From a virus (Duplodnaviria; Caudoviricetes): 24,085 nucleotides of DNA. The notes under the pieces are model-generated. The model did not search any database. It had not been told where the DNA came from and saw only the letters and a list, made by a program, of their open reading frames with translations. The stretch lies in IMG/VR virus record IMGVR_UViG_3300020045_000377, positions 1 through 24,085 of that record; one strand, 5' to 3'. The position numbers were made by a program, and so were the translations under genes. Positions 1,392 to 24,085 of the stretch are shown in pieces (positions within the stretch are counted from its first letter, which is position 1; each line of letters begins with the position of its first letter).

Positions 1392-3386
1392 ATGGCAAAG
1401 TTAGAACTCTCAGATACGATTAGTGGATATAATCTTTCTGTACTTAATGATAATTTCCAAAAGATTGAAACAGAGTTAAAAGAGAAAGTTGTATATCGGG
1501 ATGAAGTATCTCCTATGGAGCGTACTCTTGATATGGATGGTAATAAGATTATTAATCTAGGGAATGCAGTACACAGTGGAGAAGCTGTCCCACTTAACCA
1601 ACTGCTTAGTTTAATTGATGTAATTGATGCTGCTGAAATTGATCCTTTTATTCGCTCAGAACTTGCTGATACATCTGGTGCATCTTTAGTGGGTTATCTG
1701 TCACCAGAAACGGGAGCAATTAATCGTACAGTAGAAGAGGAACTAAATGATTTAGCAGTTAGTGTTAAACGATTTGGTGCAGTGGGTGATGGTGTTGCTG
1801 ATGATACTGCTGCGATTCAAGCTGCTTTAAACGCAAGTGTTTCTGTATTTTTACCAACAGGTAATTATCGTGTAACAAGCACAATCACATTTCCAAATGG
1901 GCGAACACTTCATGGAAATCATCCTGTTGGTGGATACGTCAATTATGGATTTGGGTCTGTAATTATTGCAGATACCACCGCTACGGTATTCGTTCTGCGG
2001 GATGCCAGTGCTATAAAGAATATAGGCATCAGCTACCCTAACTACGCCACAGGCTCAATGGCTCCTGTTGTTAGTGATTACACTATCAAAATCGGATTGA
2101 ACGCTGGTGCACAATCTATTGACAGTGTTCTTGATGGAATAACAGTTTGGAATGCCTACAATTTTCTGTTTGTTTACGGCGGTCGTACAAAGGTAGATAA
2201 TATCTTTGGGCGGGTTGTGAACATTGGCCTTTTCCAAAAGTATTCCGGGGATATTAGTAGGTTCAGCAATGTCCACTTCATGCCGGTTGGTGAATGGGTG
2301 GCTGGAAATATATGGGAATGGACGCTGGCAAATGGAACAGGATTTATCGTTGGGGAGAGTGGGTTTACAAATGATGCCACGCAATATGATAACTGCTCTG
2401 CTGTTGGATTTGATATCGGCTTTTTACTGCGGCAAAATTCTGCAGGAAAATACAACCAAATTTCAGCAGACGTATGCAATACCGGCTGCGTAGTTTTAGC
2501 TGCCGGTACTAGCATTGCCAATTCATCGTTTACGACTGGAAGTCGTGGATCTGGGAATTGCCTTGAGATTGGCTCCTCAAGTACGCGCCCCTCAAGCGTT
2601 GCAATCACTGGATGCCATATCATTTCTGCTACGCAGTATTGCATCAAACTTATTAAAGTTGCTGATTTGTCTATTACTGGATGCACCATTGCAAGAGGTA
2701 AACTAGGGAATTTACTTGCTAGCCCTTCAACTTCTTCTGATCTAGCAGGTGTAGTAATCACTGGAAATATATTCGTAGCAGGAGCAAATTCAATAACGCT
2801 CTGTGCACTCGGGTCTATTGGTGATGCAGTAAATGTCTCAGATAACGCTTTTACAAATTACCAACCTTACACGTCCGTAGCGGGGATAAGCTGCTCTATT
2901 GCTACTGCAAAAGTAACAAATAATTCTTTTGGTGGCGTTTCTCCTCAGACTTCTGGAACAGCTTCTCCTACAGGAACTTTTACGCCTACGTACAAAACTA
3001 CCGGAGTAAATATTGTCTCCGCTACGTATCCAAGTTCAACCGGAGGATATTATTCAAGGGTGGGGGATGCTGTGTTTTTTACGCTATCTATGCAAACCGA
3101 CGCAATGGATAAGACGGGCGCGACGGGAAACGTCAGAATAACCGGTTTACCGATTACAGCGAAATCGGGGTTATCTTTCCCGCTCAACGCTGCGTGCTCT
3201 GTTGCAAACTCTTTGACGTTTGGCGGCAGTAGACCTATGTTTGCCAGGGTAGTGCAGGGAACTGCTGATATAGAACTCTTCTATCGGGTAGCAGTGGGAG
3301 ATAATGACTCGGCAGTTCCTATTGGAAGTTTAAGTACAGGAGCCTCTGCTAATATTATTACAGTTTCTGGGGTATATCCTATCTAA
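1392..3386 (+). CDS. Tailspike / tail fibre with pectate-lyase-like beta-helix (putative polysaccharide depolymerase)
   Basis: N-terminal anchor (LNDNFQKIE...LDMDGNKIINL), the Pectate_lyase_3-type start SVKRFGAVGDGVADDTAAIQAAL, beta-helix repeats (ITGC, ITGN), and a C-terminal GTFTPT...YSRVGDAV...ITGLP domain. Confidence 0.85.
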   Translation: MAKLELSDTISGYNLSVLNDNFQKIETELKEKVVYRDEVSPMERTLDMDGNKIINLGNAVHSGEAVPLNQLLSLIDVIDAAEIDPFIRSELADTSGASLVGYLSPETGAINRTVEEELNDLAVSVKRFGAVGDGVADDTAAIQAALNASVSVFLPTGNYRVTSTITFPNGRTLHGNHPVGGYVNYGFGSVIIADTTATVFVLRDASAIKNIGISYPNYATGSMAPVVSDYTIKIGLNAGAQSIDSVLDGITVWNAYNFLFVYGGRTKVDNIFGRVVNIGLFQKYSGDISRFSNVHFMPVGEWVAGNIWEWTLANGTGFIVGESGFTNDATQYDNCSAVGFDIGFLLRQNSAGKYNQISADVCNTGCVVLAAGTSIANSSFTTGSRGSGNCLEIGSSSTRPSSVAITGCHIISATQYCIKLIKVADLSITGCTIARGKLGNLLASPSTSSDLAGVVITGNIFVAGANSITLCALGSIGDAVNVSDNAFTNYQPYTSVAGISCSIATAKVTNNSFGGVSPQTSGTASPTGTFTPTYKTTGVNIVSATYPSSTGGYYSRVGDAVFFTLSMQTDAMDKTGATGNVRITGLPITAKSGLSFPLNAACSVANSLTFGGSRPMFARVVQGTADIELFYRVAVGDNDSAVPIGSLSTGASANIITVSGVYPI

Positions 3387-9504: not shown

Positions 9505-9975
9505 ATGGCTTACGAAAATGGTACGGGCCTTGGTGTGTATAATCAGTATGGCGCTCGTTCTACTGGTGGTGCATACGGCAAGGAAACAGGCGATGGCAGC
9601 ACTTTCCGTGTTGTCGTTGACTTGACTGGTGAAATGTTGAACAGCGGGTTTGTTCCTCCTGTTTATGTTCCTAAGGGTGCATTGCTTCAATCTGCAATGT
9701 TGGATGTAGATGAAGTGTTTGTTGTCTCGGCAGCTGGCACTGTGGCAATTGGTGGCACTGTCCCCGGCACTAATGGTGTTGTGTTGACTGAAGCCAAGCT
9801 GGAAGCAGTTGGTACTTCGTTGGTTAGCTCTCTTGCTATTGGTACTTGGGCTACGGCTTCTTCCACTGGTACTACGGCTTCTGAGAAGATTACTAAAGCA
9901 ATCACTGGTACTGTAGCAGCTACCTCTGGTAAAGCTACGCTGGTGATGGACTTCTTCACCAAGACTAAGGCTTAA
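9505..9975 (+). CDS. Minor capsid / head decoration protein (putative)
   Basis: 156 aa, G/T/A/V-rich beta protein with RBS TAAGGA, located between the MCP and the terminator, with similar codon bias. Confidence 0.65.
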   Translation: MAYENGTGLGVYNQYGARSTGGAYGKETGDGSTFRVVVDLTGEMLNSGFVPPVYVPKGALLQSAMLDVDEVFVVSAAGTVAIGGTVPGTNGVVLTEAKLEAVGTSLVSSLAIGTWATASSTGTTASEKITKAITGTVAATSGKATLVMDFFTKTKA

Positions 9976-21776: not shown

Positions 21777-22163
21777 ATGGCAGAACAGGAAGTTAAGACA
21801 GAGATGCCTTGGGAGAAGAGCTGGATCATGAAGAAGGTCCAGCCTCTTGTTGATGCTGTAGCAGATGCTAAGAAGGGGACAATTCCCTGGGAAAGACAAT
21901 GGAGCGAAAAGGAAGTGAAAGCTAAAGCTGTGAACCCTGCTACACAAACAGCAGGAAAGAGCTACAAGCTTGATAAAGACTTACCAAGCCTCCTAGGTAA
22001 CACTCCTGAAGAAAATCGAATGGGTGCCCGTATAGAGCCTACTAGCGTTAAGTCTAGGCGTGTAGAGCAAGACATCTTATCAATTAAAGCTGAGATGGCT
22101 AAAACTAAAGACCCTAATATTCTTTCAGTGTTGCAAAACGAACTAAAGAAAAGGACAAGGTGA
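21777..22163 (+). CDS. Hypothetical protein with repeated PWExxW motif
   Basis: Probable start is the ATG at 21777 (MAEQEVK), 1 nt after the upstream stop; the ORF-track extension to 21597 overlaps the upstream gene. Contains MPWEKSW and IPWERQW. Confidence 0.7.
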   Translation: MAEQEVKTEMPWEKSWIMKKVQPLVDAVADAKKGTIPWERQWSEKEVKAKAVNPATQTAGKSYKLDKDLPSLLGNTPEENRMGARIEPTSVKSRRVEQDILSIKAEMAKTKDPNILSVLQNELKKRTR

Positions 22164-22166
22164 GAT

Positions 22167-22439
22167 ATGCCAAAGAAAGGGCAATATTCTAAATCAGCTA
22201 CAGAAGATTCAATTCGTCAACGAAAGTATAACTCTAAGCCCTCTAGTAAGAAGGACAGAGCCTCTCGTAATGCTGCTCGTAGCGAGGCTATGAAGGATGG
22301 TAAGGTACGAAAGCATGATGGTCGTGACATTGATCACAAAGACTCTAACCCACGTAATAATAAAAAAAGTAACACCCAAGTGATGTCTGCTAGTAAGAAC
22401 AGAGCACTTAATCAATTTGACAAAAGGAAAAAGAAATAA
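22167..22439 (+). CDS. Small basic HNH endonuclease-like protein
   Basis: DIDHKDSNPRNNKKSNTQVMSASKNR matches the beta-beta-alpha HNH/HNN pattern; very K/R-rich; RBS AAGGTGAG. Confidence 0.75.
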   Translation: MPKKGQYSKSATEDSIRQRKYNSKPSSKKDRASRNAARSEAMKDGKVRKHDGRDIDHKDSNPRNNKKSNTQVMSASKNRALNQFDKRKKK

Positions 22440-23959
22440 TGGCAATTGAACCTAAAGGCCCAGGTGGTGTAGGCAGTTCTTATGGAACCCGTACAACCAC
22501 CCCAGCTCCTCAGATTGGCTCTGCTAACGAGCTGCGCCCTAATTACACAGAGTTCTCTCAAGAAGAAGGATTTCCTGTAGTTGCACAAACTAACCCTCTC
22601 ACCGGGGAGATTGGCTTTTTTATAGGTTCAATCGCTGCCGGAACCGTTGGGGAGTTGCCAGGCAAGTCTCGCATGTCCATTGCAGTCATTGGCGACAGTC
22701 GTGCAGCAAATCATGTGGCCGGAACATCGCAGTTTTCTGGTCGCGGGGCTGTCGCATGGGCATCTCTGAAGCTAAACGGAAAGCTTCGATTCTCAACGGC
22801 AGATGTTTACGGGGTGTCAACGACCTATATTTATGACAATAGATCCGGCCTGTTGTCAGCATACAACCAGCTCGCAACGCTCACAAAGCAATACGATTTC
22901 ATAGCCGCAATTTGCGCGGTGAATGACGTATTTAATGGCGCGTCATCAGGCAAGATGATTGCCGACATGACAGCGGTTATCTATGCGATTTTTCAGAAGG
23001 GATCAACCCCGATCCTGTTTACCGAAGTCGTCACAACCGGCATGTCGGCGGCACAGCGAACGGTTGTTGATCGATACAACTCCTGGCTGCGAAGTTGCGT
23101 GGTCGGCAAGAGGATTTTGCTGATTGACGCATATGCGATTTGTGTGGATTGGACTTCTGCGACTTGTCAGCCGCTCGGCTCTGGAGCAGCGCAGTACCTT
23201 TATGATGGTCTGCACTTTGCGCCAGTGGCGGCTGAAAAGATCGGGAATTCACTGGTGGCAACACTTGATAAATGGATGCCCGCGCAGGCCATGATCTCAA
23301 TGGCGTCGAGAGAGGATGCGTATGATGCAACAAACCGCCCCTATGGCAATTTGCTTGGAATTCAAGGTGCATTTGGCGCATCTGGTGGCGCAAACCGGGA
23401 CGGGGCGAATGATGTAACAACTGCTTCGACTGGTACAGTAGCCCTAGGATCGCGGCTGTACAAAACGCCCGGCGCTTTGATTTCTGTTGTCGGCGCTGTT
23501 GGAACGAGCATTGCCGATATTCAAGGCAATGCAATCGCGCTGCCGGTGCAAAACATCAAGATCACAGCGGGTGGCACGGGTTATCAAACGTGTCAGTTCC
23601 AGCTTCCCGGCATATCAACAAACATTGCGCCGGGGGATGTTGTTTGTATGTCTGGCTGGATCAATATCAAAGGTGCAACCGGATTACAAGCTTTCTCCCC
23701 GTACGTTCAGGAACAGAACGGGTCCTATGTGGTGCAGCAAACGACATCGGTCATGTCTGGCTTTCAGAATTCCAGCGTCTATTACCCGCCGGTTCAGGAT
23801 GTCAAGGCTTTTTATTTTGAGTCCCCGCCGATGACTCTTACTGCTGCTGCGGTGTATCTGCGTGCAATGCTTGACATTCAAGTCGATGGCGCAACAGCTA
23901 ATGTCGAAATTGAGATCGCAAACGTATCAGTGCACAAGGTGGACCCACTGCAACTGTAA
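22439..23959 (+). CDS. SGNH/GDSL hydrolase-domain tail-associated protein (putative O-acetyl esterase / receptor-binding protein)
   Basis: Block I IAVIGDS, block III ICAVND, block V YDGLHF; C-terminal beta-sandwich (carbohydrate-binding-like); short low-complexity N-terminal ~55 aa. Confidence 0.8.
   Translation: MAIEPKGPGGVGSSYGTRTTTPAPQIGSANELRPNYTEFSQEEGFPVVAQTNPLTGEIGFFIGSIAAGTVGELPGKSRMSIAVIGDSRAANHVAGTSQFSGRGAVAWASLKLNGKLRFSTADVYGVSTTYIYDNRSGLLSAYNQLATLTKQYDFIAAICAVNDVFNGASSGKMIADMTAVIYAIFQKGSTPILFTEVVTTGMSAAQRTVVDRYNSWLRSCVVGKRILLIDAYAICVDWTSATCQPLGSGAAQYLYDGLHFAPVAAEKIGNSLVATLDKWMPAQAMISMASREDAYDATNRPYGNLLGIQGAFGASGGANRDGANDVTTASTGTVALGSRLYKTPGALISVVGAVGTSIADIQGNAIALPVQNIKITAGGTGYQTCQFQLPGISTNIAPGDVVCMSGWINIKGATGLQAFSPYVQEQNGSYVVQQTTSVMSGFQNSSVYYPPVQDVKAFYFESPPMTLTAAAVYLRAMLDIQVDGATANVEIEIANVSVHKVDPLQL
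22592..22612 (+). other. Left 21-bp site of putative domain cassette (AACCCTCTCACCGGGGAGATT)
   Basis: 14/21 identical to 23965-23985 in direct orientation; AAYC-N13-GATT dyad; encodes NPLTGEI in frame. Confidence 0.5.
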
Positions 23960-23964
23960 TTTCA

Positions 23965-23985
23965 AATCCCCTCAGCACGATGATT
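23965..23985 (+). other. Right 21-bp site of putative domain cassette (AATCCCCTCAGCACGATGATT)
   Basis: 5 nt after the SGNH gene stop; shares the CTCA core and AAYC/GATT ends with 22592-22612. Confidence 0.5.
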
Positions 23986-23992
23986 ATAAACC

Positions 23993-24016
23993 AACCCGTC
24001 TGTTTCAAGGTGGGTT
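23993..24016 (+). other. Intergenic hairpin (possible terminator or processing site)
   Basis: AACCCGTCT-GTTTCA-AGGTGGGTT, a 9-bp stem with two G-U pairs; no long U-tract. Confidence 0.4.
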
Positions 24017-24033
24017 AACTCTTAAGGAATTAG

Positions 24034-24085
24034 ATGGCAAGTTCTAAACTAACTCGTCAACGTCAAGTTGTTGAACCTATTCGTG
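24034..24085 (+). CDS. Start of next gene, truncated by the window end (MASSKLTRQRQVVEPIR...)
   Basis: RBS TAAGGA then ATG at 24034, open to the window end, phage-type codons. Confidence 0.7.
   Translation, partial: MASSKLTRQRQVVEPIR

What the first reader, a model, noticed from the sequence alone, without database searches (positions are those of the whole stretch)
22592..23985. Candidate site-specific, in-frame swappable receptor-binding cassette: SGNH domain bracketed by att-like 21-bp sites
Seen: the left site AACCCTCTCACCGGGGAGATT (22592-22612) lies inside the ORF and encodes N52-PLTGEI. The right site AATCCCCTCAGCACGATGATT (23965-23985) lies 5 nt after the stop. They match 14/21 as direct repeats 1373 bp apart, share a CTCA core, and both have AAYC-N13-GATT dyad ends. 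Crossing over in CTCA would release a 1373-bp circle with junction AATCCCC-TCACCGG-GGAGATT, i.e. 7-bp inverted arms (6/7 complementary) around a 7-bp spacer. It would leave an empty site AACCCTC-TCAGCAC-GATGATT reading ...TNPLSTMIINQPVCFKVG*. Established: inverted arms around a 6-8 bp spacer is the core-site layout of tyrosine recombinases (lambda Int, XerCD, integron IntI, shufflon Rci). Inference: domain cassettes are plugged in frame onto a resident ~55-aa virion-anchoring N-terminus, an integron-like host-range diversification system. No recombinase is encoded in this window, so it would act in trans or from the host. The match is imperfect and could be chance.
Basis: partly seen in the sequence, partly recalled or inferred. 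Interest (0 to 1): 0.85.

Follow-up and report, generated by a model that had tools for sequence, protein, structure and literature searches.

The report
Plug-in enzyme cassettes across unrelated phages
Dozens of unrelated phages carry a likely virion gene whose predicted sugar-modifying end lies between the same two short DNA sites and differs between close relatives exactly at those sites, so phages likely swap these ends as standard plug-in parts, probably through a recombinase that has not been found.

Summary
The two sites are real; their 14/21 match alone is chance-level, but relatives show a system. In 41 slots from unrelated phages, an in-frame left site (spacer TCACCGG, peptide N/D-P-L/V-T-G) and a non-coding right site (CTAATCCCC-TCWGCAC-GAWGATY) at the stop codon bracket a 1.2-2.6 kb cargo. 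Eight anchors, the window's included, each carry unrelated cargos; four cargos, 94-96% identical, sit on unrelated anchors, breaking right after the site. L043/L048 are 92-95% identical outside the sites and unrelated between them. Cultured Curvibacter phage P26059A has two slots. Cargos are mostly predicted esterases and deacetylases; one anchor is a capsid cement protein. No empty site, circle junction or shared recombinase was found. Best reading: exchange by two crossovers, left with left and right with right, like plasmid dif modules, rather than integron-like excision. The enzyme is unidentified. No description in ten literature searches; the scan's index held no look-alike.

The parts
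22439..23959 (+). 506-aa anchor-cargo fusion gene
   Evidence: phrog_6102, E 6e-25, residues 68-501
22439..22591 (+). Phage-side anchor, residues 1-51; first ~20 residues resemble the N-terminal arm of the post-capsid gene 9505-9975 (weak)
   Evidence: shared with P0002 (95%) and L006/P0003 (55%); hhalign E 4e-4, probability 35%; ranks next after true family members among 1531 N-termini
22592..22612 (+). Left site L: outer arm AACCCTC (22592-22598), spacer TCACCGG (22599-22605), inner arm GGAGATT (22606-22612); encodes NPLTGEI
   Evidence: spacer TCACCGG in 26 of 28 slots; identity between relatives ends here
22606..23971 (+). Cargo cassette between the spacers, GC 0.52 against 0.40-0.42 in the flanks
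22685..23218 (+). SGNH hydrolase domain (residues 83-260); G85-D86-S87, G125, N162, D256-G-L-H259 read from the sequence
   Evidence: PF13472 E 3e-7, 31.5 bits, just under the 32.9 cut-off
23291..23956 (+). C-terminal beta-sandwich, likely carbohydrate-binding (residues 285-506)
   Evidence: Atlas model: TM 0.76-0.77 to C-terminal parts of phage SGNH proteins, 0.57-0.61 to CBM_4_9-bearing clusters; feature scores under 0.9, a lead only
23965..23985 (+). Right site R: inner arm AATCCCC (23965-23971), spacer TCAGCAC (23972-23978), outer arm GATGATT (23979-23985); non-coding
   Evidence: identity between relatives resumes at R-5 to R+0
22167..22439 (+). Upstream 90-aa HNH-like gene, phage flank; used to find L006
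24034..24085 (+). Start of phoH-like gene, downstream phage flank, cut by the contig end
   Evidence: identical to G005 over 23965-24085; phrog_170 on the G005 copy
9505..9975 (+). 156-aa gene after the major capsid gene, putative decoration protein; possible source of the anchor's N-terminal arm
   Evidence: decoration role is inferred from position only
1392..3386 (+). Separate beta-helix tailspike gene without L or R sites
   Evidence: matrix scan finds one L and one R in the whole window

Best explanation
The region is one filled slot of a cassette system shared by unrelated phages, in which a 1.2-2.6 kb cargo between an in-frame left site and a non-coding right site is exchanged between phages, likely by a site-specific (probably tyrosine-type) recombinase acting in trans through two crossovers, left with left and right with right. 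Shown: the sites, their conservation at synonymous and non-coding positions, and the anchor-by-cargo mixing with breaks at the sites. Inferred: all four 7-bp arms approximate AATCCCC (or its complement) around 7-bp spacers; the two spacers differ (TCACCGG and TCWGCAC), which would block left-right excision or inversion and allow only swaps during co-infection or with a prophage, through a cointegrate that the second crossover resolves. The left site is written in frame, so each swap fuses a new enzyme to the phage's own anchor; anchor and cargo each give one strand of a predicted beta-hairpin (V-x-A-x-T-N-P-L-T-G | G-I-E-L). The product is likely displayed on the virion, in at least some phages on the capsid, and is predicted to deacetylate, cut or bind host surface polysaccharide as an accessory to the tailspike.
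For: DNA breakpoints: L043/L048 95% identical up to L+13, no match across the cargo, 92% from R-4; L058/L075 99% to L+24, 97% from R-5; L080 a third cargo on that flank; L129/L144 84% from R-4. Protein matrix over 76 entries: 8 anchor groups (88-100% identical) with unrelated cargos, 4 cargos (94-96%) on unrelated anchors, alignments starting at cargo residue 1-2. Codon fixation in 24 peptide-level hits: xTC 23, ACC 23, GGG 22, against cargo usage CTC 0.11, GTC 0.22, ACC 0.24, GGG 0.19. Independent check of R: in the 6 left-selected loci with an R-like site the inner arm is AATCCCC in 6. L131 and L143 have R with perfect arms. Cargo GC is narrow (sd 0.03) and unrelated to flank GC (sd 0.07; r 0.08) over 37 slots, as for a common pool. 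The two P26059A slots share a private outer right arm, so that arm is phage-side. No empty site in 16 hits; one cassette per slot everywhere. Two records join at R alone (window/L053, L042/L069), as single crossovers would. Precedent for single-module exchange by cointegrate: PMC13141974 (passages). P0033's anchor is Phage_cement_2, E 4e-15. Cargo Pfam: SGNH 11 of 30, polysaccharide deacetylase 4, GH5 1, SGBP-like 1, none 13.
Against: No recombinase identified: PF00589 hits in 5 of 15 records are mutually unrelated (25% identity at most) and three complete records have none. No host copy of the sites in 401 and 151 genomes of one order. Arms are 7 bp (about 9-11 with loose extension), short for a tyrosine recombinase, and outer arms and some inner left arms are degenerate (mean matches of 7: 5.2, 5.8, 6.95, 4.3; the third is fixed by the search pattern). 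The model does not explain how a lineage gains its first slot; anchors are unrelated and the outer right arm often holds the next gene's ATG, which fits fresh insertion better. The two R-only joins share exactly 21 bases and may be assembly joins. The peptide around L is also conserved at the protein level upstream of the site. 4 of 24 right sites have no recognisable left site, and L033 has a left site without a right one. Virion location and enzyme activity are untested.
Confidence: 0.5

Rival explanations
1. Circle insertion and excision at the shared TC core: the cassette leaves as a circle with junction AATCCCC-TCACCGG-GGGGATT and enters an empty site, by a tyrosine recombinase that tolerates unlike spacers (integron- or conjugative-transposon-type; recalled) or by an IS110/IS1111-type bridge recombinase in trans.
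For: Both spacers start with TC; the two cargo-side arms are the best conserved and are complementary, like the 7-17 bp subterminal inverted repeats of IS1111 (PMC11208160, passages). Loose phage-side arms, unrelated anchors and next-gene ATGs in the outer arm fit fresh insertion.
Against: 0 empty sites in 16 hits and no post-stop junction in 11; no tandem cassettes in one slot; PF01548 in 0 of 5 complete records; the phage-side 5 bases WGCAC would have to pre-exist in every unrelated phage. Caveat: the empty-site pattern covered only part of the arm variants, small circles are unlikely to be in IMG/VR, and empty phages may be unfit.
Confidence: 0.25
2. No dedicated recombinase: L and R are conserved linkers that serve as short homology for ordinary phage or host homologous recombination, as PeSL elements do in T4-type phages; they stay conserved because only compatible ends travel.
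For: No shared site-specific recombinase found. Precedent: PMC2839356 (abstract). L also encodes a conserved peptide.
Against: Shared homology is 14-23 bp and in L043/L048 identity stops at the end of the 7-bp spacer; dyad arms with fixed asymmetric spacers are not needed for homology; R has no promoter or terminator signal above chance and no Rfam match; no annealing-protein hit among 34 ORFs of the arm that continues the window.
Confidence: 0.17
3. L is only a protein hinge motif where domains shuffle by illegitimate recombination, and R is an unrelated regulatory signal.
For: V-x-A-x-T upstream and I-E-L downstream are conserved with free third positions; background peptide hits exist.
Against: Third positions inside the site are fixed while those 7-13 bases upstream are free; only 3 of 24 background peptide hits have the spacer; DNA identity resumes within 5 bases of R in 4 independent sets; homologous SGNH genes of three Pseudomonas phages lack both sites.
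Confidence: 0.05
4. Assembly artefact: short-read assemblers join different phages at the shared 21-mers and create the apparent mixing.
For: Window/L053 and L042/L069 share exactly the 21-bp R and G005 switches from GC 0.39 to 0.6 there; no reads could be laid.
Against: Shared cargos differ by 4-6% and shared flanks by 1-16%, so they are different molecules; a cultured phage and a protein recorded from Dechloromonas agitata (WP_274738939.1) show the same layout; an artefact would not create the sites.
Confidence: 0.03

Closest known systems
pdif / dif modules of Acinetobacter Rep_3 plasmids (XerCD; PMC13141974, passages)
   Same: Accessory module between two oppositely oriented two-arm sites; single modules replace one another when left spacers match left and right match right, by cointegrate and resolution.
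   Different: Here in lytic and temperate phages of unrelated types, 7-bp rather than 6-bp spacers, one left and one right spacer for the whole family, no module chains, left site coding so that the swap makes an in-frame fusion, enzyme unknown.
Engineered recombinase-mediated cassette exchange with heterospecific lox or FRT sites (recalled; listing only)
   Same: Like arms, unlike spacers, so only donor-acceptor exchange is possible.
   Different: Natural, shorter arms, no recombinase known; the listing showed engineering papers only.
Integron gene cassettes (IntI, attI, attC; recalled)
   Same: Promoterless cargo from a common pool, stop codon overlapping the downstream site, recombinase could act in trans.
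   Different: No integrase, no arrays, no long attC hairpin, no empty site; cargo lacks its own start and is fused in frame.
IS110/IS1111 bridge-recombinase elements (PMC11208160, passages)
   Same: Short shared core and short subterminal inverted repeats on the element side.
   Different: No DEDD recombinase in 5 complete records, no empty target, no conserved non-coding end long enough to suggest a bridge RNA.
PeSL mobile regulatory cassettes of T4-type phages (PMC2839356, abstract)
   Same: Short conserved DNA elements mark where phage modules are shuffled.
   Different: PeSLs are promoter-terminator repeats, many per genome, within one phage group; here two different sites, one or two slots per genome, across unrelated phages, one site coding.
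Tail-fibre invertases and shufflons (Gin, Cin, Rci; recalled)
   Same: Recombination site inside a reading frame swaps the C-terminal part of a host-recognition protein.
   Different: Those invert alternatives stored in the same genome beside their recombinase; here no alternative is stored and alleles come from other genomes.
SGNH esterase receptor-binding proteins (G7C gp63.1, Klebsiella prophage RBPs; PMC13123978, passages)
   Same: SGNH domain in a phage structural module, predicted polysaccharide deacetylase.
   Different: Here on a short anchor that may bind the capsid, beside a separate tailspike, and bounded by the two sites.

Membership tests
pdif / dif modules | XerC and XerD arms separated by a 6-bp spacer | tested here: not met
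   7-bp spacers, all arms approximate AATCCCC; 6-bp spacer per PMC13141974; arms were not scored against an Xer matrix
pdif / dif modules | Module flanked by oppositely oriented sites with like arms inside | tested here: met
   inner arms GGGGATT and AATCCCC are complementary; outer arms are looser
pdif / dif modules | Single modules replace each other with matching left and matching right spacers | tested here: met
   L043/L048, L058/L075 share both spacers and differ in cargo
pdif / dif modules | Located on Acinetobacter Rep_3 plasmids | tested here: not met
   all genuine loci are phage; plasmid searches gave chance-level hits only
Integrons | IntI tyrosine recombinase next to the array | tested here: not met
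   no PF00589 next to slots; 5 of 15 records hold unrelated integrases elsewhere
Integrons | Tandem cassettes, circles and empty attI sites | tested here: not met
   limited by pattern breadth and by the absence of reads
IS110/IS1111 | DEDD recombinase gene | tested here: not met
   PF01548 in 0 of 5 complete records; action in trans not excluded
IS110/IS1111 | Subterminal inverted repeats of 7-17 bp and a short shared core | tested here: met
   7-bp inner arms, TC shared by both spacers; range from PMC11208160
IS110/IS1111 | Bridge RNA in a non-coding end | tested here: inconclusive
   no Rfam match in 22300-24085; cassette ends are coding up to the sites; a trans RNA was not sought
Shufflons and tail-fibre invertases | Alternative C-termini and recombinase in cis | tested here: not met
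   one L and one R in the window; PF00239 in 0 of 5, PF00589 absent from G005
PeSL cassettes | Sigma-70 promoter plus terminator stem-loop, repeated many times | tested here: not met
   promoter and terminator counts at chance level in 22000-24085; one or two slots per genome
Tyrosine-recombinase target site | Inverted arms around a 6-8 bp asymmetric spacer | tested here: met
   (perfect arms in L006-type L and in L131, L143 R)
Tyrosine-recombinase target site | Cognate recombinase binds and recombines the site | not testable with these tools
   no candidate found
SGNH hydrolases | Ser, Gly, Asn, Asp-x-x-His blocks in order | tested here: met
   GDS 85-87, G125, N162, DGLH 256-259 read from the translation; PF13472 just under cut-off; block definitions recalled
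Virion receptor-binding or capsid-displayed protein | Present in the particle and acts on host surface glycan | not testable with these tools
   indirect only: structural-module position, cement anchor in P0033, weak anchor likeness in the window

The most novel reading that the evidence does not exclude
A natural, community-wide cassette-exchange standard: unrelated podo- and siphoviruses of freshwater and soil Betaproteobacteria keep one pair of heterospecific recombination sites, one of them written into a virion protein's reading frame, and draw glycan-active domains from a shared pool through an undiscovered recombinase supplied by the host or another element.
Probability: 0.5. Interest if true: 0.95.

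Novelty: categorically new. Interest (0 to 1): 0.88.

Why it matters
How unrelated phages trade host-recognition domains at precise borders is usually put down to chance homologous or illegitimate recombination. Here the borders are two fixed 21-bp sites shared across phage families, which turns that question into a direct test, with a cultured phage-host pair (P26059A, Curvibacter) that carries two slots. It would add an inter-genome, in-frame mechanism to the known intra-genome ones (invertases, diversity-generating retroelements), point to a new recombinase with a natural pair of non-cross-reacting sites, and give a sequence tag for mining uncharacterised glycan-active enzymes (13 of 30 cargos have no Pfam match).

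Tried and rejected
Direct search for relatives of the window protein or P0002 in viral contigs: none; the window cargo itself has no close relative, so its own movement is not shown, only replacement on its anchor. Pseudomonas phage EL, nickie and M5.1 lipases: distant SGNH homologues without the sites. Bacterial cassette arrays: the GTDB scan gave 6 hits, 2 phage contigs in MAGs with full slots and 4 in ordinary genes or intergenic DNA; 4 of 18 metagenome hits (L065, L071, L072, L076) and L038, L135 are likewise chance-like. Host chromosomal site: not found in 401 and 151 genomes of G007's order, 4 scattered one-mismatch hits with differing spacers. Integrases of cassette-bearing phages: unrelated to each other, no arm motif next to them. 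P26059A annotation lists no integrase or recombinase; its paper has no passage with recombinase, integrase, tail fiber or surface protein (PMC5964084, term search). The JGI name 'RecA/RadA family phage recombinase' on P0033 is a capsid cement domain. Plasmids: chance-level. Sequencing runs: none was listed, so no reads were laid. Single-sequence fold: pLDDT 36, unusable; no PDB sequence match. The exhaustive protein-representative search never ran, so distant family size is unknown. Idea that the cassette splits a gene whose remainder starts at the ATG of the outer right arm: only 5 of 26 ATG arms open 50 codons or more, not general. L066 was left out of the slot count because its left site is out of frame with the called ORF. 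Literature: ten searches; none describes these sites, and the peptide and DNA motifs had 0 full-text hits; subscription papers and preprint supplements were not searchable.

Full report
Setting. The window is the structural half of a Zobellviridae-type podophage: its capsid protein is 68% identical to that of Salinivibrio phage CW02, and the held genome is the window alone. The finding lies in the last complete gene, 22439-23959 (506 aa), between a 90-aa HNH-like gene and the start of phoH. The protein has a short N-terminal part, an SGNH domain (residues 83-260, PF13472 at 31.5 bits, cut-off 32.9) and a C-terminal beta-sandwich that matches the tails of other phage SGNH proteins in the Atlas model (TM 0.76-0.77). 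A separate tailspike gene lies at 1392-3386.

The observation. Taken alone, 14 of 21 is ordinary: 31% of random 100-bp window pairs reach it. The first real support came from a relative found through the upstream gene: L006 has the same anchor, then an unrelated cargo, with a left site with perfect arms and a right site 4-5 bases after the stop.

The family. Exact-pattern scans for the right site gave 21 viral, 6 GTDB and 18 metagenome loci, and a shorter pattern 44 viral loci; the left-site pattern gave 11. Chance-like hits were set aside (L038, L135; 4 of 6 GTDB; 4 of 18 metagenome). After removing duplicates, 37 slots with both sites were tabulated and 4 more added by matrix score. Consensus: L = RAYCCYS TCACCGG GGGGATT, in frame about 19-120 residues into a gene; R = CT AATCCCC TCWGCAC GAWGATY, overlapping or within about 15 bases of a stop; distance 1225-2594 bp, median 1513. 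Because the scans fixed part of each site, I tested each on loci chosen by the other. Chosen by R: 18 of 24 loci with enough upstream DNA have the peptide motif with the spacer, 2 more by matrix, 4 none; background is 0.046 peptide hits per 1.9 kb, 3 of 24 with the spacer; third codon positions are fixed (xTC 23, ACC 23, GGG 22 of 24 hits) against 0.11-0.50, 0.24 and 0.19 in the cargos, while the V-x-A codons just upstream vary freely. Chosen by L: 6 of 11 loci have an R with an exact inner arm, 4 end at the contig edge, 1 (L033) has none. The hosts of these slots are unrelated phages: Zobellviridae-like, P22-like (G003), HK97-like and others by neighbouring genes, with flank GC 0.35-0.65, whereas cargo GC is 0.53 +/- 0.03 and uncorrelated with the flanks.

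Exchange at the sites. At DNA level, L043 and L048 are 95% identical for 2 kb up to the end of the left spacer, unrelated across the cargo and 92% identical for 3 kb from R-4; L058 and L075 behave alike, L080 is a third cargo on their flank, L129 and L144 a further pair. At protein level, over 76 entries, eight anchor groups carry unrelated cargos (window/P0002; L042/P0012; L043/L048/P0015; L044/P0018/P0019/P0022; L053/P0005; L055/P0021; L057/P0016; L058/L075/P0004/P0010) and four cargos at 94-96% identity sit on unrelated anchors (L052/P0012; L142/P0014; P0016/P0028; P0022/P0033), each alignment starting at the first or second residue after Thr-Gly. P0028 is recorded from Dechloromonas agitata. 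The cultured Curvibacter phage P26059A has two paralogous slots, gp119 and gp121, each with L, R and an unrelated cargo; L124 is a second tandem case. Some cassettes hold two genes (L075, L037). The window's own cargo has no close relative, so for this slot the evidence is replacement on the same anchor. Two records join at R only: G005 is a GC 0.39 replication arm, identical to the window's last 121 bases, attached at R to a cassette and a GC 0.6 phage; L042/L069 share a cassette to the last base of R. These may be single crossovers or assembly joins on a 21-mer; I do not count them as proof.

What the cargo does. Of 30 cargos scanned, 11 hit SGNH families, 4 polysaccharide deacetylase, 1 GH5, 1 an SGBP-like domain weakly, and 13 nothing. 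SGNH receptor-binding proteins of Klebsiella prophages are active esterases and G7C gp63.1 deacetylates O-antigen (PMC13123978, passages). The genes lie in structural modules, often after the capsid, portal or terminase gene, and the window phage, G003 and P26059A each have a separate tailspike or tail fibre. One anchor is a capsid cement domain, the L119 anchor copies the N-terminus of its neighbour, and the window anchor weakly resembles the arm of the gene after its capsid gene. I infer an accessory, likely capsid-displayed, glycan-active protein; this is untested.

Mechanism. The layout (inverted 7-bp arms, fixed asymmetric 7-bp spacers, perfect arms in some L and some R sites) is that of tyrosine-recombinase sites (recalled). 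The two spacers share only TC, which for a homology-dependent enzyme would forbid L-R excision and allow L-L plus R-R exchange, the route described for single dif-module replacement (PMC13141974, passages). This predicts no empty sites, circles or arrays, and none was seen, though the empty-site pattern was narrow and no reads were available. Against it: no enzyme. Tyrosine integrases occur in 5 of 15 records and are unrelated to one another; serine resolvase and IS110 families were absent from 5 of 5 records each; the arm that continues the window has no recombinase among 34 ORFs; and no host site was found in the genomes searched. The better conservation of the cargo-side arms, the unrelated anchors and the next-gene ATG in some outer arms keep circle insertion (integron-, conjugative-transposon- or IS1111-like) alive, and recombination at short conserved linkers cannot be excluded. 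I put the odds at 0.50, 0.25 and 0.17, with 0.08 for a protein-only hinge or artefact; that the sites mark the borders of exchanged cassettes I hold at about 0.95.

Comparison and novelty. It works most like a dif module or engineered cassette exchange but fails membership of dif modules, integrons, IS110, shufflons and PeSLs on tested features. Ten searches of the held library found no description, and the motifs had no full-text hit; subscription journals are mostly missing. The scan's own index held no look-alike; two notes describe analogous but different boundary elements. Papers seen: passages of PMC13141974, PMC11208160, PMC13123978 and PMC5964084; abstract of PMC2839356; listings only for the rest.

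Verdict. This is a widespread, apparently undescribed in-frame cassette system whose enzyme is still to be found.

Noticed in passing
G005 (L106, L107 1-6400): A 25-kb Zobellviridae replication arm, identical to window 23965-24085, is joined at the right site to a different, GC-rich phage; window plus arm would total about 49 kb. Real hybrid or assembly join is unresolved.
   Followed up: partly
L046, L050, L057, L060, L139, L149, L155, outer arm of R: The ATG inside the outer right arm appears to start the next phage gene, several of them short membrane-type proteins.
   Followed up: partly
L117/L037 2779-4647 (reversed), L121, L155: Right sites closing two-gene, lower-GC segments with no recognisable left site; the L117 first gene ends in a small domain like the P0010 cargo, so the left site may have decayed.
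   Followed up: partly
L002 430-2854, L004 5279-8659, L005, L008 after the 90-aa gene: Other Zobellviridae relatives fill the same position with different small virion-type genes and have no L or R site: a variable locus in which only some lineages carry a slot.
   Followed up: partly
window 21777-22163: The gene before the HNH-like gene is highly variable in length and domain content among relatives (128-440 aa, repeated PWE-type motifs, some with lysozyme-like parts).
   Followed up: no
L113 6033-6593 (P26059A gp120): An HNH endonuclease gene sits between the two slots, and its N-terminus holds the peptide NPLTGEF without the DNA spacer.
   Followed up: no
P0018/P0031, P0022/P0032, L142/P0014: Near-identical cargos often differ in the first 2-8 residues after the left spacer, i.e. 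in and just past the inner arm.
   Followed up: no
L107 501-1607: Thymidylate synthase gene interrupted by an endonuclease-like insert in frame (PHROGs hits to both), perhaps an intein or homing element.
   Followed up: no
L161 2472-3416, L162 2845-3489: Two unrelated cassette-bearing temperate phages have a similar metallophosphoesterase-like gene (34% identical) next to their unrelated integrases.
   Followed up: no
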